NCBI GenBank assembly: GCA_964016885.1
Contig: OZ024742.1
Span: forward strand, 245,892,001 to 245,956,000
Length of the DNA stretch: 64,000 nt
Reading direction: 5' to 3'
Origin: Eledone cirrhosa
Taxonomy: Eukaryota
In this document: piece by piece, positions 3,753-63,111 of the stretch
Layout: every line of letters begins with the position of its first letter
Position numbering within the stretch: position 1 is the stretch's first letter
Notes under the pieces: model-generated
Seen by the model: the letters and a program-made list of their open reading frames with translations, nothing else
Database searches by the model: none
What the model was told of the DNA's origin: nothing
Position numbers and translations under genes: made by a program

Positions 3753-3821
3753 ATCACCACTCTTCTAAATGACCTGTACAGTGCATTTGATTCTGTGCTG
3801 GAAAATTTCGATGTTTACAAG
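3753..3821 (+). CDS. Receptor guanylyl cyclase, catalytic domain exon (69 nt, phase 0/0)
   Basis: ttttcAG|ATC...AAG|GTaaac; translates ITTLLNDLYSAFDSVLENFDVYK, the class III cyclase LNDLY..FD.....DVYK motif. Confidence 0.95.
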
Positions 3822-8057: not shown

Positions 8058-8893
<836 letters not shown>

Positions 8894-8906: not shown

Positions 8907-9312
8907 AACAATAATGATGGTGGAGGTTGTGGTAGTTATGATGATGATGATGGTGGTGGTAGTAGTGGTGATAATGATGTTGTTAGTGGTGGTGATGATG
9001 GTGGTGGTAATGATACAATCATGATGGTAGTGATGGGGATGGTGATGATGATGAGGATGATGATGATGAGAGTGATCTTGATGATGATAATGATGGTGGT
9101 AGTGATGATGGTGATGATGATGATAGTGGTGATGATGGTGATGATGGTGGAAATGGTGATGGAGAGGGTGATCTTGATGATGATAATGATGGTATGATGG
9201 TTGTAGTGGTGGTGTTGATGATGATGGTCGTGGTAGTGATGATGGCGGTGGTGGTGTTGGTGTTAATGATGATGGTTGTGGTGATGATGATGATGATAAT
9301 AATGATAATAAT
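8907..9312. repeat. (GAT/GGT)n degenerate trinucleotide tract
   Basis: Continuous gatgatgat/ggtggt runs ending ~20 nt before the exon acceptor. Confidence 0.95.
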
Positions 9313-9332
9313 GGATATTCATTCACTTCCAG

Positions 9333-9424
9333 CTTTAAAGATCCATTGTTCAGAAATGACAACACGTTTGTTGGAAGAAATTGGTGGATTTTCCATTGAA
9401 CCTCGGGGAGAAATAGAAGTTAAG
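9333..9424 (+). CDS. Receptor guanylyl cyclase exon (92 nt, phase 1/0)
   Basis: ttccAG|CT TTA...AAG|GTAAGC; (A)LKIHCSEMTTRLLEEIGGFSIEPRGEIEVK. Confidence 0.96.
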
Positions 9425-9430
9425 GTAAGC

Positions 9431-12400
9431 TAGTTCTTCAGATATTGTCAGTTCTTCAGAATATTGTTAGTTCTTCAGAATATTGTTAGTTCTTCAGAAT
9501 ATTGTTAGTTCTTCAGATATTGTTAGTTATCAGAATATTGTTAGTTATGAGAATATTGTTAGTTCTTCAGAATATTGTTAGTTATCAGAATATTGTTAGT
9601 TCTTCAGAATATTGTTAGTTATCAGAATATTGTCAGTTCTTCAGAATATTGTTAGTTCTTCAAAATATTGTCAGTTCTTCAGAATATTGTCAGTTCTTCA
9701 GATATTGTCAGTTCTTCAGAATATTGTTAGTTCTTCAAAATATTGTCAGTTCTTCAGAATATTGTTAGTTCTTCAAAATATTGTCAGTTCTTCAAAATAT
9801 TGTTAGTTCTTCAGAATATTGTCAGTTCTTCAGAATATTGTTAGTTCTTCAAAATATTGTCAGTTCTTCAGAATATTGTCAGTTCTTCAGAATATTGTCA
9901 GTTCTTCAGAATATTGTCAGTTCTTCAGAATATTGTCAGTTCTTCAGAATATTGTCAGTTCTTCAAAATATTGTTAGTTCTTCAGAATATTGTCAGTTCT
10001 TCAGAATATTGTCAGTTCTTCAAAATATTGTTAGTTCTTCAGAATATTGTCAGTTCTTCAGAATATTGTCAGTTCTTCAGAATATTGTCAGTTCTTCAGA
10101 ATATTGTTAGTTCTTCAAAATATTGTCAGTTCTTCAGAATATTGTCAGTTCTTCAGAATATTGTCAGTTCTTCAGAATATTGTTAGTTCTTCAAAATATT
10201 GTCAGTTCTTCAGAATATTGTTAGTTCTTCAGAATATTGTCAGTTCTTCAAAATATTGTTAGTTCTTCAGAATATTGTCAGTTCTTCAGAATATTGTCAG
10301 TTCTTCAGAATATTGTCAGTTCTTCAGAATATTGTCAGTTCTTCAGAATATTGTCAGTTCTTCAGAATATTGTTAGTACTTCAGAATATTGTTAGTTTGT
10401 TAGAATATTGTGAGTACTTCAGAATATTGTCAGTTCTTCAGAATATTGTCAGTTCTTCGGAATATTGTCAGTTCTGCAGAATATTGTTAGTTCTTCAGAA
10501 TATTGTCAGTTCTTCGGAATATTGTCAGTTCTGCAGAATATTGTCAGTTCTTCGGAATATTGTCAGTTCTTCAGAATATTGTTAGTTCTTCAGAATATTG
10601 TTAGTTCTTCAGAGTATTGTTAGTTCTTCAGAATATTGTTAGTTCTTCAGAATATTGTTAGTTCTTCAGAATATTGTTAGTTCTTCAGAATATTGTTAAT
10701 TCTTCAGAATATTGTTAGTTCTTCTGAATATTGTTAGTTCTTCAGAATATTGTTAGTTATCAGAATATTGTTAGTTCTTCAGAATATTGTCAGTTCTTCA
10801 GAATATTGTTAATTCTTCAGAATATTGTTAGTTCTTCTGAATATTGTTAGTTCTTCAGAATATTGTTAGTTATCAGAATATTGTTAGTTCTTCAGAATAT
10901 TGTCAGTTCTTCAGAATATTGTTAGTTCTTCAGAATATTGTTAGTTATCAGAATATTGTTAGTTCTTCAGAATATTGTCAGTTCTTCAGAATATTGTCAG
11001 TTCTTCGGAATATTGTCAGTTCTGCAGAATATTGTTAGTTCTTCAGAATATTGTCAGTTCTTCGTAATATTGTCAGTTCTGCAGAATATTGTCAGTTCTT
11101 CGGAATATTGTCAGTTCTGCAGAATATTGTTAGTTCTTCAGAATATTGTTAGTTCTTCAGAATATTGTTAGTTCTTCAGAGTATTGTTAGTTCTTCAGAA
11201 TATTGTTAGTTCTTCAGAATATTGTTAGTTCTTCAGAATATTGTTAGTTCTTCAGAATATTGTTAATTCTTCAGAATATTGTTAATTCTTCAGAATATTG
11301 TTAGTTCTTCTGAATATTGTTAGTTATCAGAATATTGTTAGTTCTTCAGAATATTGTCAGTTCTTCAGAATATTGTTAGTTCTTCAGAATATTGTTAGTT
11401 ATCAGAATATTGTTAGTTCTTCAGAATATTGTTAGTTATCAGAATATTGTTAGTTCTTCAGAATATTGTTAGTTCTTCAGAATATTGTTAGTTATCAGAA
11501 TATTGTTAGTTCTTCAGAATATTGTTAGTTCTTCAGAATATTGTCAGTTCTTCAGAATATTGTCAGTTCTTCAGAATATTGTTAGTTATCGGAATATTGT
11601 CAGTTCTTCAGAATATTGTTAGTTCTTCAGAATATTGTTAGTTATGAGAATATTGTTAGTTCTTCACAATATTGTTAGTTATCAGAATATTGTTAGTTCT
11701 TCAGAATATTGTTAGTTATCAGAATATTGTTAGTTCTTCAGAATATTGTTAGTTCTTCAGAATATTGTTAGTTATCAGAATATTGTTAGTTCTTCAGAAT
11801 ATTGTTAGTTATCAGAATATTGTTAGTTCTTCAGAATATTGTTAGTTATCAGAATATTGTTAGTTCTTCGGAATATTGTTAGTTCTTCAGAATATTGTCA
11901 GTTCTTCAGAATATTGTTAGTTCTTCAGAATATTGTTAGTTCTTCAGAATATTGTTAGTTATCAGAATATTGTTAGTTATCAGAATATTGTTAGTTATCA
12001 GAATATTGTTAGTTCTTCAGAATATTGTTAGTTCTTCAGAATATTGTTAGTTATCAGAATATTGTCAGTTATTCAGAATATTGTTATTTATCAAAATATT
12101 GTTAGTTATCAGAACATTGTTAGTTCTTCAGAATATTGTCAGTTCTTAGTTCTTCAGAATATTGTTAGTTTTTCAGAATATTGTTAGTTCTTCAGAATAT
12201 TGTTAGTTACCAGAAAATTGTTAGGTCTTTAGAATATTGTTAGTTTTTCAGAATATTGTTAGTTCTTCAGAATATTGTCCGTTATTCAGAATATTGTTAA
12301 TTATCAGAATATTGTTAGTTATCAGAATATCGTTAGTTCTTAAGATTATTGTTAGTTCTTCAGAATATTGTTATTTCTTCAGAATATTATTAGTTATCAG

Positions 12401-15400
12401 AATATTGTTAGTTCTTCAGAATATTGTTAGTTCTTCAGAATATTGTTAGTTATCAGAATATTGTTGTTTTCAGAATATTGTTAGTTCTTCAGAATATTGT
12501 TAGTTATCAGAATATTGTTAGTTATCAGAATATTGTTAGTTCTTAATATTATTGTCAGTTCTTCAGAATATTGTTATTTCTTCAGAATATTGTTAGTTAT
12601 CAGAATATTGTTAGTTCTTCAGAATATTGTTAGTTATCAGAGAATTGTTAGTTCTTCTGAATATTGTTAGTTATCAGAATATTGTTAGTTCTTCAGAATA
12701 TTGTCAGTTATTCAGAATATTGTTAGTTCTTCAGAATATTGTTTCTTATCAGAATATTGTTAGTTATCAGAACATTGTTAGTTCTTCAGAATATTGTTTC
12801 ATCTTCAGAATATTGTTAGTTCTTCAGAATATTGTTAGTTATCAGAATATTGTTTCTTCTTCAGAATATTGTTAGTTCTTCAGAATATTGTTAGTTATCA
12901 GAATATTGTTAGTTCGTTAGAATATTGTTAGTTCTTCAGAATATTGTTAGTTCTTTAGAATATTTTTATTTATCAGAATATTGTTAGTTCGTTAGAATAT
13001 TGTTAGTTATCAGAATATTGTTAGTTCTGCAGAATATTGTTAGTTTTTCAGAATATTGTTAGTTCTTCAGAATATTGTCAGTTATTCAGAATATTGTTAG
13101 TTCTTCAAAATATTGTTAGTTATCAGAATATTGTTAGTTCTTCAGAATATAGTTAGTTATCAGAATATTGTTAGTTCTTCAGAATATAGTTAGTTATCAA
13201 AATATTGTTAGTTTTTCAGAATATTGTTAGTTCTTCAGAATATTGTCAGTTATTCAGAATATTGTTAGTTCTTCAGAATATTGTTAGTTATCAGAATATT
13301 GTTAGTTCTTCAGAATATTGTTAGTTATGAGAATATTGTTAGTTCTTCAGAATATTGTTAGTTATCAGAATATTGTTAGTTCTTCAGAATATTGTTAGTT
13401 ATCAGAATATTGTTAGTTCTTAAGATTATTGTCAGTTCTTCAGAATATTGTTAGTTCTTCAGAATATTGTTAGTTATCAGAATATTGTTAGTTCTTCAGA
13501 ATATTGTTAGTTCTTCAGAATATTATTAGTTATCAGAATATTGTTAGTTATCAGAATATTGTTAGTTGTCAGAATATTGTAAGTTCTGCAGAATATTGTT
13601 AGTTATCAGAATATTGTTAGTTGTCAGAATATTGTTAGTTCGTCAGAATATTGTTAGTTATGATAATATTGTTGTTTTCAGAATGTTATTAGTTCTTCAG
13701 AATATTGTTAGTTATCAGAATATTGTTAGTTCTTCAGAATATTGTTAGTTCTTTAGAATATTGTTAGTTATCACAATATTGTTAGTTCTGCAGAATATTG
13801 TCAGTTATCACAATATCGTTAGTTCTTCAGAATATTGTTATTTATCAGAATATTGTTAGTTCTTAAGATTATTGCCAGTTCTTCAGAATATTGTTAGATT
13901 TCAGAATATTGTTAATTCTTCAGAATGAGTTAATTCTTCAGAATATTGTTAGTTATCAGAATATTGTTAGTTATCAGAATATCGTTAGTTCTTCAGAATA
14001 TTGTTATTTCTTAGAATATTGTTAGTTCTTTATAATATCGTTAGTTCTTCAGAATATTGTTAGTTCTTAAGAATATTGTTAGTTCTTTAGAATATTGTTA
14101 GTTCTTAATATTATTGTCAGTTCTTCAGAATATTGTTATTTCTTCAGAATATTGTTAGTTCTTCAGAATATTGTTAGTTATCGGAGAATTGTTAGTTATC
14201 AGAATATTGCTAGTTCTTGAGAATATTGTTAATTCTTCGAAATATTGTTAGTTATCTGATTATTGTTAGTTCATTAGAATATTGTTAGTTATCAGAATAT
14301 TGTTAGATTTTCAGAATATTGTTACTTATCAGAATATTATTAGTTATCACTATTGTTAGTTTTTCAGAATATTATTAGTTTTTCAGAATATTGTTAGTTT
14401 TTCAGAATATTGTTAGTTCTTCAGAATATTGTTAGTTATCAGAATATTGTCAGTTATTCAGAATATTGTTACTTATCAAAATATTGTTAGTTCTTCAGAA
14501 TATTGTCAGTTCTTCAGAACATTGTTAGTTCTTCAGAATATTGTTAGTTCTTCAGAATATTGTTAGTTCTTCAGAATATTGTTAGTTACCAGAAAATTGT
14601 TAGGTCTTTAGAATATTGTTAGTTCTTCAGAATATTGTTAGTTCTTCAGAATATTGTTAGTTCTTCAGAATATTGTTAGTTATCAAAATATCGTTAGTTC
14701 TTCAGAATATTGTTAGTTCTTCAGAATATTGTCAGTTATTCAGAATATTGTTAGTTCTTCAAAATATTGTTAGTTATCAGAATATTGTTAGTTCTTCAGA
14801 ATATTGTTAGTTCTTCAGAATATTATTAGTTATCAGAATATTGTTAGTTGTCAGAATATTGTTAGTTCTGCAGAATATTGTTAGTTCTTCAGAATATTGT
14901 TAGTTATCATAATATTGTTGTTTTCAGAATAGTGTTAGTTCTTCAGAATATTGTTAGTTATCAGAACATTGTTATTTATCAGAATATTGTTAGTTATCAG
15001 AGAATTGTTAGTTCTTCTGAATATTGTTAATTATCAGAATATTGTTAGTTCTTAATATTATTGTCAGTTCTTCAGAATATTGTTATTTCTTCAGAATATT
15101 GTTAGTTATCAGAATATTGTTAGTTCTGCAGAATATTGTTAATTATCAGAATATTGTTAGTTCTTCAGAATATTGTCAGTTATTCAGAATATTGTTAGTT
15201 CTTCAGAATATTGTTTCTTATCAGAATATTGTTAGTTATCAGAACATTGTTAGTTCTTCAGAATATTGTTAGTTATCAGAATATTGTTAGTTCGTTAGAA
15301 TATTGTTAGTTCTTCAGAACATTGTTAGTTTTTCAGAATATTGTTAGTTTTTCAGAATATTGTTAGTTTTTCAGAATATTTTCAGTTCTTTAGAATATTG

Positions 15401-18400
15401 TTAGTTCTTCAGAATATTGTTAGTTCTTCAGAATATTGTTAGTTCTTCAGAATATTGTTAGTTCTTCAGAATATTGTTAGTTACCAGAATATTGTTAGTT
15501 CTTCAGAATATTGTTAGTTATCAGAACATTGTTAGTTCTTCAGAATATTGTCAGTTCTTCAGAACATTGTTAGTTCTTCAGAACATTGTTAGTTCTTCAG
15601 AATATTGTTAGTTCTTCAGAATATTGTTAGTTCTTCAGAATATTGTTAGTTTTTCAGAATATTGTTAGTTCTTCAGAATATTGTTAGTTACCAGAAAATT
15701 GTTAGGTCTTTAGAATATTGTTAGTTTTTCAGAATATTGTTAGTTCTTCAGAATATTGTCAATTATTCAGAATATTGTTAGTTCTTCAAAATATTGTTAT
15801 TTATCAGAATATTGTTAGTTCTTCAGAATATTGTTAGTTATCAGAATATTGTCAGTTATTCAGAATATTGTTACTTATCAAAATATTGTTAGTTATCAGA
15901 ACATTGTTAGTTCTTCAGAATATTGTCAGTTCTTCAGAACATTGTTAGTTCTTCAGAATATTGTTAGTTCTTCAGAATATTGTTAGTTCTTCAGAATATT
16001 GTTAGTTATCAAAATATCGTTAGTTCTTCAGAATATTGTTAGTTCTTCAGAATATTGTCAGTTATTCAGAATATTGTTAGTTCTTCAAAATATTGTTAGT
16101 TATCAGAATATTGTTAGTTCTTCAGAATATTGTTAGTTCTTCAGAATATTATTAGTTATCAGAATATTGTTAGTTGTCAGAATATTGTTAGTTCTGCAGA
16201 ATATTGTTAGTTCTTCAGAATATTGTTAGTTATCATAATATTGTTGTTTTCAGAATAGTGTTAGTTCTTCAGAATATTGTTAGTTATCAGAACATTGTTA
16301 TTTATCAGAATATTGTTAGTTATCAGAGAATTGTTAGTTCTTCTGAATATTGTTAATTATCAGAATATTGTTAGTTCTTAATATTATTGTCAGTTCTTCA
16401 GAATATTGTTATTTCTTCAGAATATTGTTAGTTATCAGAATATTGTTAGTTCTGCAGAATATTGTTAATTATCAGAATATTGTTAGTTCTTCAGAATATT
16501 GTCAGTTATTCAGAATATTGTTAGTTCTTCAGAATATTGTTTCTTATCAGAATATTGTTAGTTATCAGAACATTGTTAGTTCTTCAGAATATTGTTAGTT
16601 ATCAGAATATTGTTAGTTCGTTAGAATATTGTTAGTTCTTCAGAACATTGTTAGTTTTTCAGAATATTGTTAGTTTTTCAGAATATTGTTAGTTTTTCAG
16701 AATATTTTCAGTTCTTTAGAATATTGTTAGTTCTTCAGAATATTGTTAGTTCTTCAGAATATTGTTAGTTCTTCAGAATATTGTTAGTTCTTCAGAATAT
16801 TGTTAGTTACCAGAATATTGTTAGTTCTTCAGAATATTGTTAGTTATCAGAACATTGTTAGTTCTTCAGAATATTGTCAGTTCTTCAGAACATTGTTAGT
16901 TCTTCAGAACATTGTTAGTTCTTCAGAATATTGTTAGTTCTTCAGAATATTGTTAGTTCTTCAGAATATTGTTAGTTTTTCAGAATATTGTTAGTTCTTC
17001 AGAATATTGTTAGTTACCAGAAAATTGTTAGGTCTTTAGAATATTGTTAGTTTTTCAGAATATTGTTAGTTCTTCAGAATATTGTCAATTATTCAGAATA
17101 TTGTTAGTTCTTCAAAATATTGTTATTTATCAGAATATTGTTAGTTCTTCAGAATATTGTTAGTTATCAGAATATTGTCAGTTATTCAGAATATTGTTAC
17201 TTATCAAAATATTGTTAGTTATCAGAACATTGTTAGTTCTTCAGAATATTGTCAGTTCTTCAGAACATTGTTAGTTCTTCAGAATATTGTTAGTTCTTCA
17301 GAATATTGTTAGTTCTTCAGAATATTGTTAGTTATCAAAATATCGTTAGTTCTTCAGAATATTGTTAGTTCTTCAGAATATTGTCAGTTATTCAGAATAT
17401 TGTTAGTTCTTCAAAATATTGTTAGTTATCAGAATATTGTTAGTTCTTCAGAATATTGTTAGTTCTTCAGAATATTATTAGTTATCAGAATATTGTTAGT
17501 TGTCAGAATATTGTTAGTTCTGCAGAATATTGTTAGTTCTTCAGAATATTGTTAGTTATCATAATATTGTTGTTTTCAGAATAGTGTTAGTTCTTCAGAA
17601 TATTGTTAGTTATCAGAACATTGTTATTTATCAGAATATTGTTAGTTATCAGAGAATTGTTAGTTCTTCTGAATATTGTTAATTATCAGAATATTGTTAG
17701 TTCTTAATATTATTGTCAGTTCTTCAGAATATTGTTATTTCTTCAGAATATTGTTAGTTATCAGAATATTGTTAGTTCTGCAGAATATTGTTAATTATCA
17801 GAATATTGTTAGTTCTTCAGAATATTGTCAGTTATTCAGAATATTGTTAGTTCTTCAAAATATTGTTTCTTATCAGAATATTGTTAGTTATCAGAACATT
17901 GTTAGTTCTTCAGAATATTGTTAGTTATCAGAATATTGTTTCCCCTTCAGAATGTTATTAGTTCTTCAGAATATTGTTAGTTATCAGAATATTGTTAGTT
18001 CGTTAGAATATTGTTAGTTCTTCAGAACATTGTTAGTTTTTCAGAATATTGTTAGTTTTTCAGAATATTGTTAGTTTTTCAGAATATTTTCAGTTCTTTA
18101 GAATATTGTTAGTTCTTCAGAATATTGTTAGTTCTTCAGAATATTGTTAGTTCTTCAGAATATTGTTAGTTCTTCAGAATATTGTTAGTTACCAGAATAT
18201 TGTTAGTTCTTCAGAATATTGTTAGTTATCAGAACATTGTTAGTTCTTCAGAATATTGTCAGTTCTTCAGAACATTGTTAGTTCTTCAGAATATTGTTAG
18301 TTCTTCAGAATATTGTTAGTTCTTCAGAATATTGTTAGTTTTTCAGAATATTGTTAGTTCTTCAGAATATTGTTAGTTACCAGAAAATTGTTAGGTCTTT

Positions 18401-21400
18401 AGAATATTGTTAGTTTTTCAGAATATTGTTAGTTCTTCAGAATATTGTCAGTTATTCAGAATATTGTTAGTTCTTCAGAATATTGTTAGTTCTTCAGAAT
18501 ATTGTTAGTTATCAGAATATTGTTAGTTATCAGAATATTGTTAGTTCTTCAGAATATTGTTAGTTATCAGAATATTGTTAGTTCTTCAGAATATTGTCAG
18601 TTCTTCAGAATATTGTCAGTTATTCAGAATATTGTTAGTTCTTCAGAATATTGTCAGTTATTCAGAATATTGTTAGTTCTTCAGAATATTGTCAGTTCTT
18701 CAGAATATTGTCAGTTCTTCAGAATATTGTTAGTTATCGGAATATTGTCAGTTCTTCAGAATATTGTTAGTTCTTCAGAATATTGTTAGTTATGAGAATA
18801 TTGTTAGTTCTTCACAATATTGTTAGTTATCAGAATATTGTTAGTTCTTCAGAATATTGTCAGTTCTTCAGAATATTGTCAGTTATTCAGAATATTGTTA
18901 GTTCTTCAGAATATTGTCAGTTCTTCAGAATATTGTCAGTTCTTCAGAATATTGTTAGTTATCGGAATATTGTCAGTTCTTCAGAATATTGTTAGTTCTT
19001 CAGAATATTGTTAGTTATGAGAATATTGTTAGTTCTTCAGAATATTGTTAGTTCTTCAGAATATTGTCAGTTCTTCAGAATATTGTTAGTTATCGGAATA
19101 TTGTCAGTTCTTCAGAATATTGTTAGTTCTTCAAAATATTGTTATTTATCAGAATATTGTTATTTCTTCAGAATATTGTTAGTTATCAGAATATTGTTAG
19201 TTCTTCAGAATATTGTCAGTTCTTCAGAATATTGTCAGTTATTCAGAATATTGTTAGTTCTTCAGAATATTGTCAGTTATTCAGAATATTGTTAGTTCTT
19301 CAGAATATTGTTTCTTATCAGAATATTGTTAGTTATCAGAACATTGTTAGTTCTTCAGAATATTGTTTCATCTTCAGAATATTGTTAGTTCTTCAGAATA
19401 TTGTTAGTTCTTCAGAATATTGTTAGTTCTTCAGAATATTGTTAGTTATCAGAATATTGTTAGTTCCTCAGAATATTATTAGTTCTTCAGAATATTGTTA
19501 GTTATCAGAATATTGTTAGTTCTTCAGAATATTGTTAGTTCTTCAGAATATTGTTAGTTCTTCAGAATATTGTTAGTTATCAGAATATTTTCATTTCTTC
19601 AGAATATTGTTAGTTCTTCAGAATATTGTTAGTTATCAGAATATTGTTAGTGCTGCAGAATATTGTTAATTATCAGCATATTGTTATTTCTTAATATTAT
19701 TGTCAGTTCTTCGGAGTATTGTTAGTTCTTCAGAATATGGTTAGTTATCAGAATATTGTTAGTTCTGCAGAATATTGTCAGTTATCACAATATCGTTAGT
19801 TCTTCAGAATATTGTTATTTATCAGAATATTGTTAGTTCTTAAGATTATTGTCAGTTCTTCAGAATATTGTTAGATTTCAGAATATTGTTAGTTCTTCAG
19901 AATATTATTGTTAATTCTTCAGAATATTGTTAGTTATCAGAATATTGTTAGTTATCAGAATATTGTTAGTTCTTCAGAATATTGTTATTTCTTAGAATAT
20001 TGTTAGTTCTTTATAATATCGTTAGTTCTTCAGAATATTGTTAGTTCTTAAGAATATTGTTAGTTCTTTAGAATATTGTTAGTTCTTAATATTATTGTCA
20101 GTTCTTCAGAATATTGTTATTTCTTCAGAATATTGTTAGTTATAAGAATATTGTTAGTTCTTAATATTATTGTCAGTTCTTCAGAACATTGTTATTTCTT
20201 CAGAATATTGTTAGTTATAAGAATATTGTTAGTTCTTCAGAATATTGTTAGTTATCGGAGAATGTTAGTTATCAGAATATTGCTAGTTCTTCAGAATATT
20301 GTTAATTCTTCGAAATATTGTTAGTTATCTGATTATTGTTAGTTCATTAGAATATTGTTAGTTATCAGAATATTGTTAGATTTTCAGAATATTGTTACTT
20401 ATCAGAATATTATTAGTTATCAATATTGTTAGTTTTTCAGAATATTATTAGTTTTTCAGAATATTGTTAGTTTTTCAGAATATTGTTAGTTCTTCAGAAT
20501 ATTGTTAGTTATCAGAACATTGTTAGTTCTTCAGAATATTGTCAGTTCTTCAGAACATTGTTAGTTCTTCAGAATATTGTTAGTTCTTCAGAATATTGTT
20601 AGTTCTTCAGAATATTGTTAGTTATCAAAATATCGTTAGTTCTTCAGAATATTGTGAGTTTTTCAGAATATTGTTAGTTCTTCAGAATATTGTCAGTTAT
20701 TCAGAATATTGTTAGTTCTTCAGAATATTGTTTCTTATCAGAATATTGTTAGTTATCAGAACATTGTTAGTTCTTCAGAATATTGTTTCATCTTCAGAAT
20801 ATTGTTAGTTTTTCAGAATATTGTTAGTTATCAGAATATTGTTTCTTCTTCAGAATATTGTTAGTTCTTCAGAATATTGTTAGTTATCAGAATATTGTTA
20901 GTTCGTTAGAATATTGTTAGTTCTTCAGAATATTGTTAGTTCTGCAGAATATTGTTAGTTTTTCAGAATATTGTCAGTTATCAGAATATTGTTAATTCTT
21001 CAGAATATTGTTAGTTCTTCAGAATATTGTTAGTTTTTCAGAATATTGTTAGTTTTTCAGAATATTGTTAGTTTTTCAGAATATTGTCAGTTCTTCAGAA
21101 TATTGTTAGTTCTTCAGAATATTGTTAGTTCTGCAGAATATTGTTAGTTTTTCAGAATATTGATAGTTATCAGAATATTGTCAGTTATCAGAATATTGTT
21201 AATTGTTCAGAATATTGTTAGTTCTTCAGAATATTGTTAGTTCTTCAGAATATTGTTAGTTCTGCAGAATATTGTTAGTTTTTCAGAATATTGTTAGTTA
21301 TCAGAATATTGTCAGTTATCAGAATATTGTTAATTCTTCAGAATATTGTTAGTTCTTCAGAATATTGTTAGTTTTTCAGAATATTGTTAGTTTTTCAGAA

Positions 21401-42400: not shown

Positions 42401-45400
42401 CAGAATATTGTTAGTTCTTCAGAATATTGTTAGTTATCAGAATATTTTCAGTTCTTCAGAATATTGTTAGTTCTTCAGAATATTGTTAGTTATCAGAATA
42501 TTGTTAGTGCTGCAGAATATTGTTAATTATCAGCATATTGTTATTTCTTAATATTATTGTCAGTTCTTCGGAGTATTGTTAGTTCTTCAGAATATGGTTA
42601 GTTATCAGAATATTGTTAGTTCTGCAGAATATTGTCAGTTATCACAATATCATTAGTTCTTCAGAATATTGTTATTTATCAGAATATTGTTAGTTCTTAA
42701 GATTATTGTCAGTTCTTCAGAATATTGTTAGATTTCAGAATATTGTTAGTTCTTCAGAATATTATTGTTAATTCTTCAGAATGAGTTAATTCTTCAGAAT
42801 ATTGTTAGATTTCAGAATATTGTTAGTTCTTCAGAATATTATTGTTAATTCTTCAGAATGAGTTAATTCTTCAGAATATTGTTAGTTATCAGAATATTGT
42901 TAGTTATCAGAATATTGTTAGTTCTTCAGAATATTGTTATTTCTTAGAATATTGTTAGTTCTTTATAATATCGTTAGTTCTTCAGAATATTGTTAGTTCT
43001 TAAGAATATTGTTAGTTCTTTAGAATATTGTTAGTTCTTAATATTATTGTCAGTTCTTCAGAATATTGTTATTTCTTCAGAATATTGTTAGTTATAAGAA
43101 TATTGTTAGTTCTTTATATTATTGTCAGTTCTTCAGAACATTGTTATTTCTTCAGAATATTGTTAGTTATAAGAATATTGTTAGTTCTTCAGAATATTGT
43201 TAGTTATCGGAGAATTGTTAGTTATCAGAATATTGCTAGTTCTTCAGAATATTGTTAATTCTTCGAAATATTGTTAGTTATCTGATTATTGTTAGTTCAT
43301 TAGAATATTGTTAGTTATCAGAATATTGTTAGATTTTCAGAATATTGTTACTTATCAGAATATTATTAGTTATCAATATTGTTAGTTTTTCAGAATATTA
43401 TTAGTTTTTCAGAATATTGTTAGTTTTTCAGAATATTGTTAGTTCTTCAGAATATTGTTAGTTATCAGAATATTGTCAGTTATTCAGAATATTGTTACTT
43501 ATCAAAATATTGTTAGTTATCAGAACATTGTTAGTTCTTCAGAATATTGTCAGTTCTTCAGAACATTGTTAGTTCTTCAGAATATTGTTAGTTCTTCAGA
43601 ATATTGTTAGTTCTTCAGAATATTGTTAGTTATCAAAATATCGTTAGTTCTTCAGAATATTGTGAGTTTTTCAGAATATTGTTAGTTCTTCAGAATATTA
43701 TCAGTTCTTCAGAATATTGTTAGTTCTTCAAAATATTGTTAGTTATCAGAATATTGTTAGTTCTTCAGAATATTGTTAGTTCTTCAGAATATTATTAGTT
43801 ATCAGAATATTGTTAGTTGTCAGAATATTGTTAGTTCTGCAGAATATTGTTAGTTCTTCAGAATATTGTTAGTTATCATAATATTGTTGTTTTCAGAATA
43901 GTGTTAGTTCTTCAGAATATTGTTAGTTATCAGAACATTGTTATTTATCAGAATATTGTTAGTTATCAGAGAATTGTTAGTTCTTCTGAATATTGTTAAT
44001 TATCAGAATATTGTTAGTTCTTAATATTATTGTCAGTTCTTCAGAATATTGTTATTTCTTCAGAATATTGTTAGTTATCAGAATATTGTTAGTTCTGCAG
44101 AATATTGTTAATTATCAGAATATTGTTAGTTCTTCAGAATATTGTCAGTTATTCAGAATATTGTTAGTTCTTTGAATATTGTTTCTTATCAGAATATTGT
44201 TAGTTATCAGAACATTGTTAGTTCTTCAGAATATTGTTAGTTATCAGAATATTGTTTCCCCTTCAGAATGTTATTAGTTCTTCAGAATATTGTTAGTTAT
44301 CAGAATATTGTTAGTTCGTTAGAATATTGTTAGTTCTTCAGAACATTGTTAGTTTTTCAGAATATTTTCAGTTCTTTAGAATATTGTTAGTTCTTCAGAA
44401 TATTGTTAGTTCTTCAGAATATTGTTAGTTCTTCAGAATATTGTTAGTTCTTCAGAATATTGTTAGTTACCAGAATATTGTTAGTTCTTCAGAATATTGT
44501 TAGTTATCAGAACATTGTTAGTTCTTCAGAATATTGTCAGTTCTTCAGAACATTGTTAGTTATTCAGAATATTGTTAGTTCTTCAGAATATTGTTAGTTT
44601 TTCAGAATATTGTTAGTTCTTCAGAATATTGTTAGTTACCAGAAAATTGTTAGGTCTTTAGAATATTGTTAGTTTTTCAGAATATTGTTAGTTCTTCAGA
44701 ATATTGTCAGTTATTCAGAATATTGTTAGTTCTTCAAAATATTGTTATTTATCAGAATATTGTTATTTCTTCAGAATATTGTTAGTTATCAGAATATTGT
44801 TAGTTCTTCAGAATATTGTTAGTTATCAGAATATTGTTAGTTCTTCAGAATATTGTCAGTTCTTCAGAATATTGTCAGTTATTCAGAATATTGTTAGTTC
44901 TTCAGAATATTGTTTCTTATCAGAATATTGTTAGTTATCAGAACATTGTTAGTTCTTCAGAATATTGTTTCATCTTCAGAATATTGTTAGTTCTTCAGAA
45001 TATTGTTAGTTCTTCAGAATATTGTTAGTTCTTCAGAATATTGTTAGTTATCAGAATATTGTTAGTTCTTCAGAATATTATTAGTTCTTCAGAATATTGT
45101 TAGTTATCAGAATATTGTTAGTTCTTCAGAATATTGTTAGTTCTTCAGAATATTGTTAGTTCTTCAGAATATTGTTAGTTATCAGAATATTTTCAGTTCT
45201 TCAGAATATTGTTAGTTCTTCAGAATATTGTTAGTTATCAGAATATTGTTAGTGCTGCAGAATATTGTTAATTATCAGCATATTGTTATTTCTTAATATT
45301 ATTGTCAGTTCTTCGGAGTATTGTTAGTTCTTCAGAATATGGTTAGTTATCAGAATATTGTTAGTTCTGCAGAATATTGTCAGTTATCACAATATCATTA

Positions 45401-48400
45401 GTTCTTCAGAATATTGTTATTTATCAGAATATTGTTAGTTCTTAAGATTATTGTCAGTTCTTCAGAATATTGTTAGATTTCAGAATATTGTTAGTTCTTC
45501 AGAATATTATTGTTAATTCTTCAGAATGAGTTAATTCTTCAGAATATTGTTAGATTTCAGAATATTGTTAGTTCTTCAGAATATTATTGTTAATTCTTCA
45601 GAATGAGTTAATTCTTCAGAATATTGTTAGTTATCAGAATATTGTTAGTTATCAGAATATTGTTAGTTCTTCAGAATATTGTTATTTCTTAGAATATTGT
45701 TAGTTCTTTATAATATCGTTAGTTCTTCAGAATATTGTTAGTTCTTAAGAATATTGTTAGTTCTTTAGAATATTGTTAGTTCTTAATATTATTGTCAGTT
45801 CTTCAGAATATTGTTATTTCTTCAGAATATTGTTAGTTATAAGAATATTGTTAGTTCTTTATATTATTGTCAGTTCTTCAGAACATTGTTATTTCTTCAG
45901 AATATTGTTAGTTATAAGAATATTGTTAGTTCTTCAGAATATTGTTAGTTATCGGAGAATTGTTAGTTATCAGAATATTGCTAGTTCTTCAGAATATTGT
46001 TAATTCTTCGAAATATTGTTAGTTATCTGATTATTGTTAGTTCATTAGAATATTGTTAGTTATCAGAATATTGTTAGATTTTCAGAATATTGTTACTTAT
46101 CAGAATATTATTAGTTATCAATATTGTTAGTTTTTCAGAATATTATTAGTTTTTCAGAATATTGTTAGTTTTTCAGAATATTGTTAGTTCTTCAGAATAT
46201 TGTCAGTTATTCAGAATATTGTTACTTATCAAAATATTGTTAGTTATCAGAACATTGTTAGTTCTTCAGAATATTGTCAGTTCTTCAGAACATTGTTAGT
46301 TCTTCAGAATATTGTTAGTTCTTCAGAATATTGTTAGTTCTTCAGAATATTGTTAGTTATCAAAATATCGTTAGTTCTTCAGAATATTGTGAGTTTTTCA
46401 GAATATTGTTAGTTCTTCAGAATATTGTCAGTTATTCAGAATATTGTTAGTTCTTCAAAATATTGTTAGTTATCAGAATATTGTTAGTTCTTCAGAATAT
46501 TGTTAGTTCTTCAGAATATTATTAGTTATCAGAATATTGTTAGTTGTCAGAATATTGTTAGTTCTGCAGAATATTGTTAGTTCTTCAGAATATTGTTAGT
46601 TATCATAATATTGTTGTTTTCAGAATAGTGTTAGTTCTTCAGAATATTGTTAGTTATCAGAACGTTGTTATTTATCAGAATATTGTTAGTTATCAGAGAA
46701 TTGTTAGTTCTTCTGAATATTGTTAATTATCAGAATATTGTTAGTTCTTCAGAATATTGTCAGTTATTCAGAATATTGTTAGTTCTTCAGAATATTGTTT
46801 CTTATCAGAATATTGTTAGTTATCAGAACATTGTTAGTTTTTCAGAATATTGTTAGTTATCAGAATATTGTTTCTCCTTCAGAATGTTATTAGTTCTTCA
46901 GAATATTGTTAGTTATCAGAATATTGTTAGTTCGTTCGAATATTGTTAGTTCTTCAGAAAATTGTTAGTTTTTCCGAATATTGTTAATTTTTCAGAATAT
47001 TGTTAGTTCTTCAGAATATTGTTAGTTACCAGAATATTGTTAGTTCTTCAGAATATTGTTAGTTATCAGAACATTGTTAGTTCTTCAGAATATTGTCAGT
47101 TCTTCAGAACATTGTTAGTTCTTCAGAATATTGTTAGTTCTTCAGAATATTGTTAGTTCTTCAGAATATTGTTAGTTTTTCAGAATATTGTTAGTTCTTC
47201 AGAATATTGTTAGTTACCAGAAAATTGTTAGGTCTTTAGAATATTGTTAGTTTTTCAGAATATTGTTAGTTCTTCAGAATATTGTCAGTTATTTAGAATA
47301 TTGTTAGTTCTTCAAAATATTGTCATTTATCAGAATATTGTTATTTCTTCAGAATATTGTTAGTTATCAGAATATTGTTAGTTCTTAAGATTATTGTCAG
47401 TTCTTCAGAATATTGTTAGTTCTTCAGAATATTATTAGTTATCAGAATATTGTTAGTTCTTCAGAATATTGTTAGTTCTTCAGAATATTGTTAGTTATCA
47501 GAATATTGTTAGTTCTTAATATTATTGTCAGTTCTTCAGAATATTGTTATCTCTTCAGAATATTGTTAGTTATCAGAATATTGTTAGTTCTTCAGAATAT
47601 TGTTAGTTATCAGAGAATTGTTAGTTCTTCTGAATATTGTTTGTTATTCAGAATATTGTTAGTTCTTCAGAATATTGTTTCTTATCAGAATATTGTTAGT
47701 CATCAGAACATTGTTAGTTCTTCAGAATATTGTTTCTTCTTCAGAATATTGTTAGTTCTTCAGAATATTGTTAGTTATCAGAATATTGTTTCTTCTTCAG
47801 AATATTGTTAGTTCTTCAGAATATTGTTAGTTATCAGAATATTGTTAGTTCGTTAGAATATTGTTAGTTCTTAAGAATATTGTTAGTTCTTTAGAATATT
47901 GTTAGTTATCAGAATATTGTTAGTTCGTTAGAATATTGTTAGTTCTTCAGAATATTGTTAGTTATCAGAATATTGTCAGTTATCAGAATATTGTTAATTC
48001 TTCAGAATATTGTTAATTCTTCAGAATATTGTTAGTTCTTCAGAATATTGTTAGTTTTTCAGAATATTGTTAGTTTTTCAGAATATTGTTAGTTTTTCAG
48101 AATATTGTCAGTTCTTCAGAATATTGTTAGTTTTTCAGAATATTGTTAGTTTTTCAGAATATTGTCAGTTCTTTAGAATATTGTTAGTTCTTCAGAATTT
48201 TGTTAGTTCTGCAGAATATTGTTAGTTATCAGAATATTTTCAGTTATCAGAATATTGTTAATTCTTCAGAATATTGTTAGTTCTTCAGAATATCGTTAGT
48301 TTTTCAGAATATTGTCAGTTCTTTAGAACATCGTTAGTTCTGCAGAATATCGTTAGTTATCAGAATATTGTTAATTCTTCAGAATATTGTTAGTTCTTCA

Positions 48401-48993
48401 GAATATTGTTAGTTTTTCAGAATATTGTTAGTTCTTCTGAATATTGTTAGTTATCAGAATATTGTCAGTTATTCAGAATATTGTCAGTTATTCAGAGTAT
48501 TGTTAGTTATCAAAATATTGTCAGTTCTTCAGAACATTGTTAGTTCTTCAGAATATTGTTAGTTCTGCAGAATATTGTTAGTTATCAGAATATTGTTAGT
48601 TATCAGAATATTGTTAGTTATCAGAATATTGTTAGTTCTTCAGAATATTGTTAGTTATCAGAATATTGTTAGTTATCAGAATATTGTTAGTTCTGCAGAA
48701 TATTGTTAGTTCTGCAGAATATTGTTATTTCTTCAGAGTATTGTTAGTTCTTCAGAATATTGTTAGTTCTTCAGAATATTGTTAGTTCTTCAGAATATTG
48801 TTAGTTCTTCAGAATATTGTTAGTTATCAGAATATTGTTATTTCTTCAGAATATTGTTAGTTCTTCAGAATATTGTTAGTTATCAGAATATTGTTATTTC
48901 TTCAGAATATTGTTAGTTCTTCAGAATATTGTTAGTTCTTCAGAATATTGTTAATTATCTGAATATTGCTAGTTCTTCAGAATATCATAGTTA
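9431..48993. repeat. ~39.5-kb intronic satellite of 19/18-bp monomers (roughly 2,100 copies by length) with higher-order repeats
   Basis: Head-to-tail GAATATTGTTAGTTCTTCA / GAATATTGTTAGTTATCA and variants, all in one orientation. Identical ORF-track translations recur at offsets 1326, 2411, 2745, 5023/5042 and 9000. Confidence 0.99.
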
Positions 48994-48994
48994 A

Positions 48995-49296
48995 TTTATA
49001 TTATAATAAGCGCTGTCTGTCTGTCCCTACGTCCGTCACGCTCACTTTATTGAGGGAGGAGGAGCGCCAAGTGAGAGATATGTACATAGAGAAAGAGAGA
49101 GAAGTGAATGCCGTGTGACAGAATTAGGTAGATAGACAGAAAGTTATGACGTCGCCCTCATCTATATATAGAGAAGGGGAGCAACAAGTGAAAGAGATGT
49201 ACATAAATAGAGAGAGAAAAGGAACATCATTGGTTTAGAGTGAGTGTGTGTATGTGTGTGTGACAGAAATAGGGAGAAGACGTTGCTCTCATCTAG
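48995..49296 (+). mobile_element. Probable non-autonomous Helitron at the satellite's right edge
   Basis: Starts A|TTTATATTATAATAAG...CTGTCTGTCTGTCC (Helitron-like 5' end, with T in place of the canonical C). Ends with a weak hairpin GAGAAGACGTTGCTCTC followed by CTAG|T. Confidence 0.5.
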
Positions 49297-49304
49297 TAAT
49301 AAGC

Positions 49305-49506
49305 GTTTCTTATTTAGGCACAAGACCAAAAATTTGGGGGAAGGGAAAGTCAAAATAAATCGACGCCAGTGTATTACTGGTGCTTTATTTATCGATCCTA
49401 TAAGGATAAAAGGCAAAGTTAACCAAGGTGGAATTTGAACTCGGTACATAAAGTGCTGTAACTCTATGCCACAAAGCATGGTGCCGGCGCTCTACTGCAC
49501 AGCTCC
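49305..49506 (-). mobile_element. tRNA-SINE family A copy
   Basis: TTTATCGATCCTATAAGGATAAAAGGCAAAGTTAACC...ATTTGAACTC is the reverse complement of the family A core plus box B. Confidence 0.8.
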
Positions 49507-50255
49507 AATATTACAGACATGTGGTTAGAATGTTAAAGGAAAGAATTGCTGCACCAATTTTATAGGCAAAGCCAACTGGCAGGTGATCAGAGGTAGATCA
49601 CAGAAGTAAATATAGTTGTTAATTTGCCCCATACTGAAATATCTTTTAAGATTTCTTACAGGCTACATTAACTCATTAGTGATAGGATGATAGCAACTTG
49701 ATATATGCATAGTTTCATGGTTTTATATCTAGATTATACAATTACTAACAGGACTCATGGAAATCTCACGGACAAAAAAATGAAGAGCAGCTATTTAAGA
49801 GACGTCCGTCTAGCTATATATTATCTCTTCTCTCATGTTGTCTTAGTCTAACTCGCTCTAACACGATGTCTTTGTTCTCCATTCATTTCCTCACATCTCT
49901 GTACACATACATAGACACAATTCATTACAATTGTGTGTGTGTATGTGCATATGTATACATTTATATGTATGAGTATATAAATATAAACACACATACTTAC
50001 ACAAAACACATTCACACATACAAATATACTCACACAAAACAAACACATACATACACTTACACAAGTGTAGCTAATCTTGGAACGCTCATTGCTATAGCAT
50101 TTCACCAGCCCTTTCCTTCCTCAATCATTACATAGATCATAGATGTGTGTGTATTTAATAATTATTTTGTATAATGTGTCTATTTATGAATATGTATGAG
50201 CAGATATGTGTGCTTGCACTTCTGTTGTCTGTGTATTATGTATTTACATGTAGAT

Positions 50256-51055
50256 AGGTGCTCTCAAAAGGGTGCACACTGCAGCCGCCGCTGTTGGTCT
50301 ACGAATCAATGCCGCCAAGTCGAAAGTCATGACGTCACTGGTCTCGCCTGATGCCTGGCAGCCAATATCTCTCGAGGGCATGGATCTGGAGGATGTGGAG
50401 TCCTTCGTTTACCTAGGCTCAACAGTGGTTCCAATGGGACAGGGCGTAGCCAAGGTCAAGCGTCGCATAGGTGCTACCAGATCTGCCTTTGGGCGCCTCC
50501 AACAGTGTCTGTGGGACAGAAGAGAGATCACCTCGGTGACCAAAGCGCGAATCTACCAGGCCGTCGTTCGCACTATCCTCCTCTATGGCTGTGAAACATG
50601 GCCTATGAGGGTAGTCGATCAACGGGAGCTGGAGGTCTTCGACAATGACTGTCTCCGCCGCCGACGCGTTGATCGAGTACCTACCACCAGTCCTCGTCTT
50701 CGCCTGAATCTTCGACCCCTTCAGTGCTTCTGCAACAGCACTTGAGATGGTTTGGTTACGCAGCCCAGCGCCCTGAGAGTGAGCTGATCTGCGATGTTCT
50801 CCTCCCACATTCACTCCTTAACTGGAGCAAACGCGTTGGCGGGCAGCTGAAGACCTGGGCAATGACGATCAAGGAGGACCTCTCAGGTCCACAGGTGGTC
50901 GGCCTGCGCTGATGGAACCGTGACTGGCTCGCTATCTTCAGTGACCTAGCCTGGGACCGTCGTGTGGGGGCTGCCATCGTTCGGGATGCCGTTAGGACAA
51001 GGGAAGAAGCCAGCTCAACCTGTCCAGGGTGAATGTCGACACAAGTACAAGTAAG
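50256..51055 (+). mobile_element. 5'-truncated GC-rich RTE-like LINE with 12-bp TSD
   Basis: Translations GLRINAAKSKVM...VESFVYLGS...IYQAVVRTILLYGCETW...LRWFGYAAQR; tail ACAAGTACAAGTAAG; TSD TTACATGTAGAT at 50244-50255 and 51056-51067. Confidence 0.93.
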
Positions 51056-51474
51056 TTACATGTAGATGTGTGTGTGTATGTAACTAAAGCATAACCTACA
51101 TTACAAATGGACAAAACACACCAATAATTATATTATGATTATGTTCTCTGCAATTAATGAGCATTCTATGTTCTTCATGCTTCATTTCTTCCAAACAACA
51201 CCATCCTATTTTGGAAGTACCATTGTGGTAGGTCTCTAAGCTATGGTTTGTCAACCTTTTTCCTACTGAAAAACCCTTCGTTCAGAAGAATCGACCAATC
51301 ACTGGAATTCTTCATTGTTGTTATTGTTGTGTTGTCCCGTTCTTCAGTTTTTTTGTTTTGCACCCATTTCTGTATTGTCCTGTTTTCTTTATGATTCCTT
51401 GTTAAGAAATTACAAATAAATAAATCTTAATAATGAAATAATAAGGAAAGAATTAAACCACATTGTTTTGTTTT

Positions 51475-51535
<61 letters not shown>

Positions 51536-51540
<5 letters not shown>

Positions 51541-51724
51541 GAAATAGAGGCTTTCGCCGGATTTTTTGAATAAAGAAATTTTAGCCTGATTGTGGGGTTT
51601 AAAACCCTCTAAAAATGGAAAAGGATGATTATTAACGTACATGTATGTCAATACTGATTAAACCCCACTATCAAGCTAAAATTTCTTTACTCAAAATATA
51701 CGTTGAAAACTTCTATTTCTACTA
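51536..51724. mobile_element. Fold-back MITE with ~67-bp imperfect terminal inverted repeats
   Basis: TAGTAGAAATAGAGGCTTTC...AAAGAAATTTTAGCCTGATTGTGGGGTTTAA (51536-51602) is the near reverse complement of 51658-51724. Confidence 0.8.
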
Positions 51725-51769
51725 AATTCCAAACTTTGCTCTCTGTTCCAAATCAAACTTACTTGATAT

Positions 51770-51930
51770 GTCTAAGGCGGGTAAAATTCCCGAGATCCAT
51801 GGACGAGTTCTCTCCAGCGGTCTCTGTCCCTCATTATCGCTGCCATGTCCTGCATCTCCAACAGACCAGTGTCTGTCCTTAGGGCATCAACATACGTTAA
51901 CCTTGGTCTTCCTCTTCTAGTGTGTCCATG
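51770..51930 (-). mobile_element. Short RTE 3' fragment flanked by an 11-bp direct repeat
   Basis: The minus frame reads HGHTRRGRPRLTYVDALRTDTGLLEMQDMAAIMRDRDRWRELV; TTACTTGATAT at 51759-51769 and 51931-51941. Confidence 0.8.
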
Positions 51931-52094
51931 TTACTTGATATATATATATATATATAAGTAGTTCCACAACAGTTAGTTCACCATACCAAGAACAATTGTT
52001 TCACCTTATTCAGATCATCAGCTCGGTCTAGACCCATGGACTGAGTGCTCTACTACTATGAATATAACCCACCAGTGTTCTACTATTATATATA

Positions 52095-52131
52095 CTAGCA
52101 GAAAACCACCCGAAGGGTGGTTTTCTGCTAG
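52095..52131. other. Perfect 17-bp DNA hairpin with GAA loop
   Basis: CTAGCAGAAAACCACCC-GAA-GGGTGGTTTTCTGCTAG. Confidence 0.9.
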
Positions 52132-52492
52132 CATGTGTAGTGTGTATATTGATATTATATGCAAGTATATATACATGTAGATATGATATGTCAAAATCGT
52201 AATTGATAATATACACAGAAATTGAAGGAAGATTGTGTTACACTGTCTTATGTAATCAGTAACGTAATCCATGATACATTAAAAAAAGATGATATTATAT
52301 ATAAACTGCATTAGGAGAAAATTAGTGACAGAAAATTAATATGTTTATTTAAGCGATCTCCACCGGAAGTGTTGACATTTGACAATTTTAAAGAAGTGAA
52401 TCTTGAAATAAATAATAAAATATATTTAATGAACAGCCACGAAATTTAGTAGATAAATTATGTAATATTCATTAATTACTTATTCAAAGTAA

Positions 52493-52654
52493 GGCAGTGA
52501 ATTGGCAGTACCGGTAGAGGGTTGGACACCATGCTTTCTAGCATAGTTACGTCCCTTTACGGTCTGAGCTTTCATCCTTATGGAGTCGATAAAATAAAGT
52601 ACCAGTAATGTACTGGGTAATTGCTGGCCTTGTGCCAAAAGTAGAAACAATTAT
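52493..52654 (+). mobile_element. tRNA-SINE family A copy lacking box B, with 13-bp TSD
   Basis: TTATTCAAAGTAA at 52480-52492 and 52655-52667; the internal sequence matches the 58298 copy except for a deletion spanning GTTCAAATCC. Confidence 0.85.
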
Positions 52655-52846
52655 TTATTCAAAGTAATCCAACTTATTTTACTAATGGGATAAAAAATTA
52701 TAAACCATACGCAATCCCACGCTTCTTACTTTATTATAGTTTAGATATATATATATATATATAGAGGGGGGGGGGGGAGTAAAACATCCCTGATACTAAC
52801 TTCTTTTTTCTTTTCTCTCTAATTTCTTGTCAATGTATATTTGCAG

Positions 52847-52939
52847 GGTAAAGGTATGATGAAGACATATTGGTTGAAAGGAGAGAAGGTCACAGAAAAA
52901 CAACCAGATCCCAATTGTCTAACAGAAGTGTCTGAGTGA
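52847..52939 (+). CDS. Receptor guanylyl cyclase, probable last coding exon
   Basis: Pyrimidine tract plus ttgcAG|GGT AAA GGT ATG...; GKGMMKTYWLKGEKVTEKQPDPNCLTEVSE* completes the conserved VK|GKG.M.TYWL motif in phase 0; TGA at 52937-52939. Confidence 0.93.
   Translation, partial: GKGMMKTYWLKGEKVTEKQPDPNCLTEVSE

Positions 52940-59944: not shown

Positions 59945-63111
<3,167 letters not shown>

What the first reader, a model, noticed from the sequence alone, without database searches (positions are those of the whole stretch)
9425..52846. A ~39.5-kb pure satellite fills an intron that splits the catalytic domain of an apparently intact guanylyl cyclase
Seen: the motif RGEIEVK|GKGMMKTYWL is split by a 43,422-bp intron. 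About 39.5 kb of it is one 18/19-bp satellite beginning 6 nt after the GT. All five exons are in frame and stop-free and keep the catalytic residues. The other introns in view are only 1.1-2.8 kb. Known: satellite-filled giant introns are best described in Drosophila Y-linked fertility genes (kl-3, kl-5), which need dedicated RNA-binding proteins for expression. Inference: if this gene is expressed, Pol II must cross the array, giving a satellite RNA, a transcription delay and possibly a length-dependent control on cyclase output.
Basis: partly seen in the sequence, partly recalled or inferred. Interest (0 to 1): 0.75.

Follow-up and report, generated by a model that had tools for sequence, protein, structure and literature searches.

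The report
Private minisatellite swelling an octopod intron
In what is likely an octopus-family genome, a 19-base repeat that exact probes find only here fills 39.5 kb of the last intron of an intact hormone-receptor-type guanylyl cyclase gene; the same gene has a longer ordinary intron and three related genes carry unrelated repeats in the same intron, so this is likely tolerated local repeat growth rather than a control device.

Summary
Observation confirmed: 2,117 units of 16-26 bp (98% are 18/19 bp) fill 39,555 of 43,422 bp of the last intron of a 23-exon, 1,089-aa, stop-free NPR-type guanylyl cyclase (84% identical to Octopus orthologues). The repeat is private: 603 of 603 exact probe hits in the 3-Gb assembly lie in the window. 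It grew by nested kilobase duplications, the youngest an exact 9,000-bp copy. A related species carries the same unit at the same place, so the seed is old and local. The Drosophila giant-intron reading is weak: intron 1 of this gene is longer (46 kb); the K|GKG intron position is shared by 11 paralogues (0.5-29.7 kb), three of them mostly filled by unrelated repeats; a pre-set test found no general preference of arrays for donors (0 of 14). Splicing and true array length are untested. Closest known: avian intronic 'sequence stuttering'. The scan noted the same kind of intron before in other genes of this genome (ALDH5A1, VPS15, DCP2, REXO5-like). One open lead: about 850 acceptor-like sites in the array could act as decoys.

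The parts
3753..3821 (+). exon 19 of 23 (ITTLLNDLY...FDVYK), 69 bp
   Evidence: 23/23 aa identical to O. sinensis P0122
5098..5272 (+). exon 20 (VETIGDAY...GIHS), 175 bp; holds the Glu and the second Asp of the cyclase core (roles recalled)
   Evidence: 93% identical to Octopus proteins
8092..8190 (+). exon 21 (PCVAGVVG...[17 protein letters not shown]), 99 bp; Cys, Asn, Arg of the core (roles recalled)
9333..9424 (+). exon 22 (LKIHCSE...RGEIEVK), 92 bp
9425..9430 (+). 5' splice site AAG|GTAAGC, strong (10.8 bits; median of 32 training donors 9.0)
9431..48985 (+). locus-private minisatellite, consensus TAGTTCTTCAGAATATTGT, 2,117 units, about 75% A+T, higher-order cassettes of 1.3-2.7 kb
14615..17857 (+). 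exact 1,326-bp cassette repeat (1,917 bp match, 0 differences)
27612..36611 (+). first copy of the exact 9,000-bp unit (contains an exact 2,411-bp duplication)
36612..45638 (+). second copy of the 9,000-bp unit; 9,027-bp match, 0 differences; junction sequence occurs once
48986..52846 (+). non-array remainder of intron 22 (3,861 bp), ending in a pyrimidine tract, a CTAAT branch-like motif and GCAG acceptor (10.0 bits)
52847..52939 (+). coding part of exon 23 (GKGMMKTYWL...TEVSE, stop TGA)
   Evidence: 70% identical to the last 30 aa of P0122

Best explanation
The array is a single-locus intronic minisatellite inside an intact receptor guanylyl cyclase gene; it likely grew in place from a short duplication next to the donor and is likely spliced out and tolerated, with no dedicated regulatory job. 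Shown: the array, its privacy, its nested duplications, the intact 23-exon frame, a matching unit at the same place in a related species. Inferred steps: (1) a 19-bp stretch at intron +7 was duplicated before the split from organism B; (2) slippage and point changes built a mixed 18/19-bp block; (3) misaligned exchange between units (unequal crossover or template switching) copied 1.3-, 2.4-, 2.7-, 5.0- and finally 9.0-kb blocks; (4) the gene survives because the unit carries no strong donor and no poly(A) signal, so exon definition at the strong real sites still works. The cost would be 33% more DNA to transcribe (119 to 158 kb), about 13-40 min at 1-3 kb/min (rate recalled from other animals). 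The array is predicted to vary in length between animals.
For: Privacy: 603 of 603 exact 22-nt hits in G000 are in the window; 428 of 436 hits of a second probe with 1 mismatch. Old local seed: a contig of run X5 (organism B, DNA by guess) covers 9311-9440 with 9 differences and goes on with the last 9 nt of a unit and one whole unit 17/19 identical to the consensus. Growth by block copying: differences 0/9,027, 0/2,437, 0/1,917, 1/2,496, 1/1,931, 1/1,497, 7/2,149; 19,029 of 39,555 bp are exact copies of 500 bp or more. Remainder 3.9 kb lies within the paralogue range. Gene intact: 22 GT-AG introns, 1,089 aa, no stop, 908/1,076 identical to P0122. Same intron in 11 paralogues: 505, 600, 1,070, 3,396, 3,404, 3,755, 4,578, 12,358, 16,172, 17,786, 29,734 bp; 3 of 11 are mostly filled by unrelated units (L038 52-mer 4,188/4,578; L032 47-mer 829/1,070; L034 52-mer plus 28-mer 11,200/17,786). 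No donor at or above the lower-quartile score and no AATAAA/ATTAAA in 39.5 kb, against 0.8-1.3 and 1.9-2.9 per kb in ordinary intron.
Against: No RNA shows the 9424/52847 junction. Arrays of this size are rare on this chromosome: 0 of 20 evenly spaced 10-kb stretches of C3 lay in a large array, and none over 4 kb in the 200 kb upstream. This intron is the longest of the 12 homologous introns measured. Acceptor-like sites are 21.7 per kb in the array against 1.0-1.7 elsewhere, and only 5% of shuffled units make one. Neutrality is inferred from comparison, not measured. Of 5 listed exon-22 differences to organism B, 4 change the amino acid (too few to judge selection).
Confidence: 0.75

Rival explanations
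1. Regulatory array: the repeat delays or throttles the receptor, either as transcription time or as about 850 decoy acceptors that would pull exon 22 into a product ending 9 residues later (NIVSSSEYC-stop, read by hand from the consensus) and lacking the GKG strand of the catalytic core; copy number would set output.
For: 857 AG sites in the array reach the lower quartile of real acceptors, a few reach 9.5 bits against 10.0 for the true one; 5% of shuffled units do so. The seed is kept at the same position in organism B. Long genes are enriched in neuronal tissue in O. bimaculoides (PMC7222433, passages).
Against: The score is a 27-site matrix without a branch-point term; the array has no CTAAC, CTGAC, TTAAC or CTAAT and 3.4 YTRAY per kb against 5.2-8.9. 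Intron 1 already imposes a longer transit. Paralogues carry unrelated units in the same intron. Half the array is very young. The transcript folds less stably than shuffles (z +1.75; one 300-nt piece tested).
Confidence: 0.1
2. Assembly artefact in length: the array is real but the exact 9,000-bp copy (or more) was duplicated by assembly or polishing.
For: Two adjacent 9-kb copies have 0 differences and the period is a round number. No read spanning the array was seen.
Against: The junction shares only 27 exact bases with the flank, the 300 bp upstream of the two copies differ at 26 positions plus 7 gaps, and 40-200-nt words across the junction occur once: a false overlap join would need long identity (inference). 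9,000 is the sum of marker spacings 913+523+2,411+2,745+2,408, and exact copies of 1,326 and 2,411 bp show the same pattern at non-round sizes. No Ns. Removing one copy still leaves 30.5 kb; collapse could equally hide more copies.
Confidence: 0.1
3. The expansion has disabled the gene recently: exon 23 is no longer reached or spliced, and the frame has not yet decayed.
For: Exons 22 and 23 are among the less conserved (74% and 70% to P0122); 4 of 5 listed exon-22 differences to organism B are non-synonymous.
Against: All 23 exons and splice sites are intact; exons 1, 2, 8, 11 are as variable (64-72%); it is the only 100% hit for exon 21 in the genome. An earlier unreviewed note reports spliced contigs across a larger satellite intron in this genome (not checked here).
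Confidence: 0.05

Closest known systems
Avian intronic 'sequence stuttering' (PMC12954441; 12 passages; section 8 part 1 of 2)
   Same: Local tandem expansion of a short unit, confined to one intron, exons intact, recognised by TRF; unrelated units in different introns.
   Different: Birds: GC-rich dot microchromosomes, exon-stuttering expansions 112-23,555 bp, length polymorphism shown. Here: AT-rich unit, mid-arm of a 379-Mb sequence, 39.5 kb with kilobase higher-order copies, polymorphism untested, seed shared with a related species.
Drosophila Y-loop genes kl-3, kl-5 (PMC6508621 abstract and outline; PMC11207136, 11 passages)
   Same: Satellite-type DNA inside an intron of a protein-coding gene that polymerase would have to cross.
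   Different: Megabase introns, over 99% of the locus, about 90 h of transcription, dedicated proteins Blanks and Heph. Here 39.5 kb, 25% of a 158-kb gene, inside the 10-80 kb range that PMC11207136 sets apart from 'gigantic'.
NPR-A/NPR-B-type receptor guanylyl cyclases
   Same: Domain order and catalytic motifs; the Octopus orthologue P0005 carries PF01094, PF07714/PF00069 and PF00211 and hits NPR1 structures at 7e-240.
   Different: RYCLIG in place of RYCLFG, shared with O. vulgaris, O. bimaculoides (I) and Argonauta (M), so a lineage trait and not a lesion. Ligand unknown.

Membership tests
Drosophila-type intron gigantism | intron of hundreds of kb to Mb | tested here: not met
   43,422 bp; intron 1 is 46,026 bp
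Drosophila-type intron gigantism | satellite over 99% of the locus | tested here: not met
   25% of the gene span
Drosophila-type intron gigantism | intronic satellite transcribed; dedicated RNA-binding proteins; germline programme | not testable with these tools
   needs RNA and cell work
intronic sequence stuttering (avian definition) | repeat of local origin | tested here: met
   603/603 and 428/436 probe hits in the window; same unit at the same place in organism B
intronic sequence stuttering (avian definition) | confined to one intron, coding exons intact | tested here: met
intronic sequence stuttering (avian definition) | length varies between individuals | not testable with these tools
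   no spanning reads; exact kb duplications only suggest it
intronic sequence stuttering (avian definition) | GC-rich dot microchromosome setting | tested here: not met
   25% G+C unit, 378.9-Mb contig; so it works like stuttering but is not filed as the avian phenomenon
multi-locus satellite DNA family | copies at several loci | tested here: not met
   single locus in this assembly; unassembled arrays cannot be excluded
NPR-type receptor guanylyl cyclase | extracellular, membrane, kinase-homology and cyclase domains in one frame | tested here: met
   23-exon model collinear with P0122 over 1,076 aa; domains read from orthologue P0005
NPR-type receptor guanylyl cyclase | SDIVG, KVETIGD, RYCL, NTASR and KGKG motifs | tested here: met
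   alignment with seven relatives; residue roles recalled
NPR-type receptor guanylyl cyclase | expressed, ligand-activated cGMP synthesis | not testable with these tools
   needs RNA and assay

The most novel reading that the evidence does not exclude
The array is a copy-number dial on cGMP signalling: each unit offers a decoy 3' splice site but no donor or poly(A) signal, so kilobase gains and losses set the share of transcripts that reach exon 23 and encode an active receptor rather than a truncated one, and alleles of different length segregate in the population.
Probability: 0.07. Interest if true: 0.7.

Novelty: new member of a known kind. Interest (0 to 1): 0.3.

Why it matters
As a single locus it is ordinary for this genome. 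Its value is as a clean case: a datable seed shared with another species, a readable series of block duplications, strong flanking splice sites and 11 paralogous introns as built-in controls. It supports the view that private intronic repeat growth, so far described for bird dot chromosomes, also occurs in octopods, including mid-arm on a large chromosome. Six literature searches that named octopus, cephalopods or intronic repeats listed no paper on satellite-filled cephalopod introns by title or abstract start; the library lacks most subscription journals and I read no supplements. If the decoy-acceptor reading held, repeat copy number would tune a signalling enzyme.

Tried and rejected
RNA test: no RNA holder listed for a two-exon query; on 9308-9450 nothing was laid from X4, X1 or X6, 3 of 4 runs; these blanks say nothing on expression. 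Arrays prefer to start at donors: suggested by 3 of 14 array starts at 24 paralogue donors (0.3 expected), but these prompted the idea; own gene 0 of 8 (21 donors), myosin/kinesin set 1 of 13 (38 of 60 donors kept by score), and the pre-set set (note) 0 of 14 (37 of 58 kept): rejected as a general rule. Acceptor side 3 of 17 and 3 of 16 ends within 90 nt, about 1 expected each (P 0.08, 0.07): inconclusive. Selection against donors and poly(A) signals in the array: only 2.1% of 20,000 shuffled units carry either, so their absence needs no selection. Recursive splicing: no CAGGT or AGGTAAG in the array. Exon stuttering here: the unit does not include the exon end or donor (sequence). Coding potential: the unit carries stops on both strands (sequence; ORF scan covered the flanks only). 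Structured RNA: z +1.75. RYCLIG as a lesion: shared with relatives. Earlier-finding look-ups near the window and for exact duplications returned nothing; one search returned unrelated LINE notes. A search for cephalopod receptor guanylyl cyclase papers listed two, neither on this gene by title.
Full report
Observation. The window is G000:C3:245,892,001-245,956,000 of a 3.0-Gb assembly; C3 is 378.9 Mb. Exon 20 is 93% identical to Octopus bimaculoides and O. vulgaris 'atrial natriuretic peptide receptor 1' proteins and 84% to Argonauta, so the animal is likely an octopod. Splicing the five exons at GT-AG sites gives one open frame through RGEIEVK|GKGMMKTYWL with introns of 1,276, 2,819, 1,142 and 43,422 bp. 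TRF places one array at 9431-48985, period 19. It has 2,117 units, 131 distinct, 28% equal to the consensus, mean 1.6 edits, and no foreign insertion.

The gene. With 200 kb fetched upstream, tblastn and a splice-site search give 23 exons, 22 GT-AG introns, 1,089 aa and no stop; 908 of 1,076 aligned residues match O. sinensis P0122. The cyclase motifs align with seven relatives. Median intron is 2.7 kb, but intron 1 is 46,026 bp and intron 9 is 13,729 bp. The array intron is thus the second longest and the array is 25% of the 158-kb span. Intron 1 holds only small arrays (up to 2.7 kb).

Privacy and origin. An exact 22-nt probe has 603 hits in the assembly and 603 in the window. A probe for the 18-bp variant with one mismatch has 436 hits, 428 in the window, with 1 hit for the reversed control. 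One of four runs laid on 9308-9450 gave a contig: X5, organism B, covers 9311-9440 with 9 differences (5 listed) and runs on 78 nt, of which 30 are shown: the last 9 nt of a unit, ending as the last unit of the window array does (AATATCAT), then a whole unit 17/19 identical to the consensus, then two letters that do not start a third unit. So at least a short duplication stood at intron +7 before the two species split. Its length in organism B is unknown.

How it grew. Exact or near-exact block copies: lag 9,000 (0 differences in 9,027 bp), 2,411 (0/2,437), 1,326 (0/1,917), 2,745 (1/2,496), 5,156 (1/1,931), 5,042 (1/1,497), 5,023 (7/2,149). A rare marker unit recurs 19 times at cassette spacings, and 48% of the array is exact copy in pieces of 500 bp or more. 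The 5' 2 kb is simpler (17 distinct units against 30-56 in the other 2-kb bins). This is what repeated misaligned exchange would leave (inference). With 0 differences in 9 kb the last event is young: under 83,000 years at 2e-9 per site per year (rule of three; the rate is assumed). The round period raised the question of an artefact; the junction has 27 bp of exact overlap, is unique as a 40-200-nt word and has dissimilar upstream flanks, which argues for a real adjacency but does not prove the copy number.

Controls in the same genome. Exon 21 finds 18 other cyclase loci. Eleven have a phase-0 intron at the same K|GKG position, 505 to 29,734 bp long. Seven were left out: three have no intron across this region (L039, L041, L042), two adenylyl-type loci have no intron at this point (L043, L045), one is broken (L040), one ends at a contig end (L046). 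Three of the 11 introns are mostly filled by their own unrelated units. On C3, 20 evenly spaced 10-kb stretches held 1.0% of bases in minisatellites of 1 kb or more, and none lay in a large array; the 17 paralogue stretches held 11%. So arrays are common in the genome, and one of 39.5 kb mid-arm on C3 is the tail of the distribution. Earlier unreviewed notes list 84-421 kb private satellite introns in ALDH5A1, VPS15, DCP2 and a REXO5-like gene; I did not check those loci.

Why the gene can carry it. Matrices from 32 donors and 27 acceptors score the true sites 10.8 and 10.0 bits. The 1,353 commonest ATT|GTTAGT sites score 0.6; none in the array reaches the lower quartile (6.5), against 0.8-1.3 per kb in ordinary intron; AATAAA and ATTAAA are absent. 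GTTAGT does serve as a donor in intron 14, but after AAA. Shuffled units lack both signals 98% of the time, so this is permissive, not evidence of selection. Against the simple picture, 857 AG sites reach the acceptor lower quartile (21.7 per kb against 1.0-1.7), which 5% of shuffled units would give. Branch-like motifs are scarce. These sites cannot form internal exons without donors, but could compete for the exon-22 donor; this is the basis of the novel case.

The start at +7. Three paralogue arrays also begin near a donor, but a pre-set test on new exons gave 0 of 14, and all independent sets together 1 of 35 against about 0.7 expected. The position is a property of this seed, not a rule.

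Comparison. It works like avian intronic stuttering (PMC12954441: local, intron-confined, length-variable; passages and section 8 part 1 read), but not in the GC-rich dot-chromosome setting. It fails the size features of Drosophila intron gigantism (PMC6508621 abstract and outline; PMC11207136 passages). Papers on the fly genes were found. No supplements were read.

Verdict. Real, well-formed, likely neutral; a further case of a pattern that this scan has noted in other genes of this genome. Splicing, expression and allele lengths remain untested. Interest 0.3.

Noticed in passing
L045:101-1227 (G000:C26, about 6,490,130-6,491,250): Adenylyl-cyclase-type gene: a 23-bp unit made of the exon end plus its donor (CAG|GTAGG) is repeated about 47 times, giving 45 strong donor copies in a row. 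This is exon stuttering as described in birds; use of a later donor would shift the frame or meet a stop.
   Followed up: partly
L038:1094-5281 (G000:C11, about 43.87 Mb): The homologous K|GKG intron of a paralogue holds a 52-bp array, 4,188 of 4,578 bp, starting at +11.
   Followed up: partly
L034 and L195-L198 (G000:C28, 114.15-114.20 Mb): A paralogue region with five different arrays (17, 52, 28, 48, 30 bp units; 1.8-10.1 kb) in 50 kb.
   Followed up: no
L039, L041 (G000:C13, 7.26-7.27 Mb), L042 (G000:C2, 223.18 Mb): Guanylyl-cyclase-like genes with no intron across exons 21-23; two lie in open frames of 1,677 and 1,689 aa: likely retrocopies.
   Followed up: no
L040 (G000:C13, 26.84 Mb): Exon-21 copy with a stop codon whose downstream intron reads like that of L035: likely a broken partial duplicate.
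   Followed up: no
G000:C3, 105,084 bp upstream of the window start (intron 1, +23): The 13-nt core of the unit occurs once in the 224 kb outside the array, just after the first donor of the same gene. Seen after the fact; may be chance.
   Followed up: no
window 1-1618, minus strand: Open frame of 539 aa running off the window start, endonuclease-tail and reverse-transcriptase-like, in intron 18 (label recalled, not searched).
   Followed up: no
window 7023-7865, minus strand: Frameshifted pieces with a VY-I-C...YIGET motif, like the GIY-YIG nuclease of Penelope-type elements (label recalled).
   Followed up: no
window 50190-50910: G+C-rich, broken LINE-like fragment in the non-array part of intron 22 (label recalled).
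   Followed up: no
window 3196-3625 and 59947-63123: A 105-bp unit in 4 copies in intron 18, and a 3.2-kb TA-rich microsatellite downstream of the gene.
   Followed up: no
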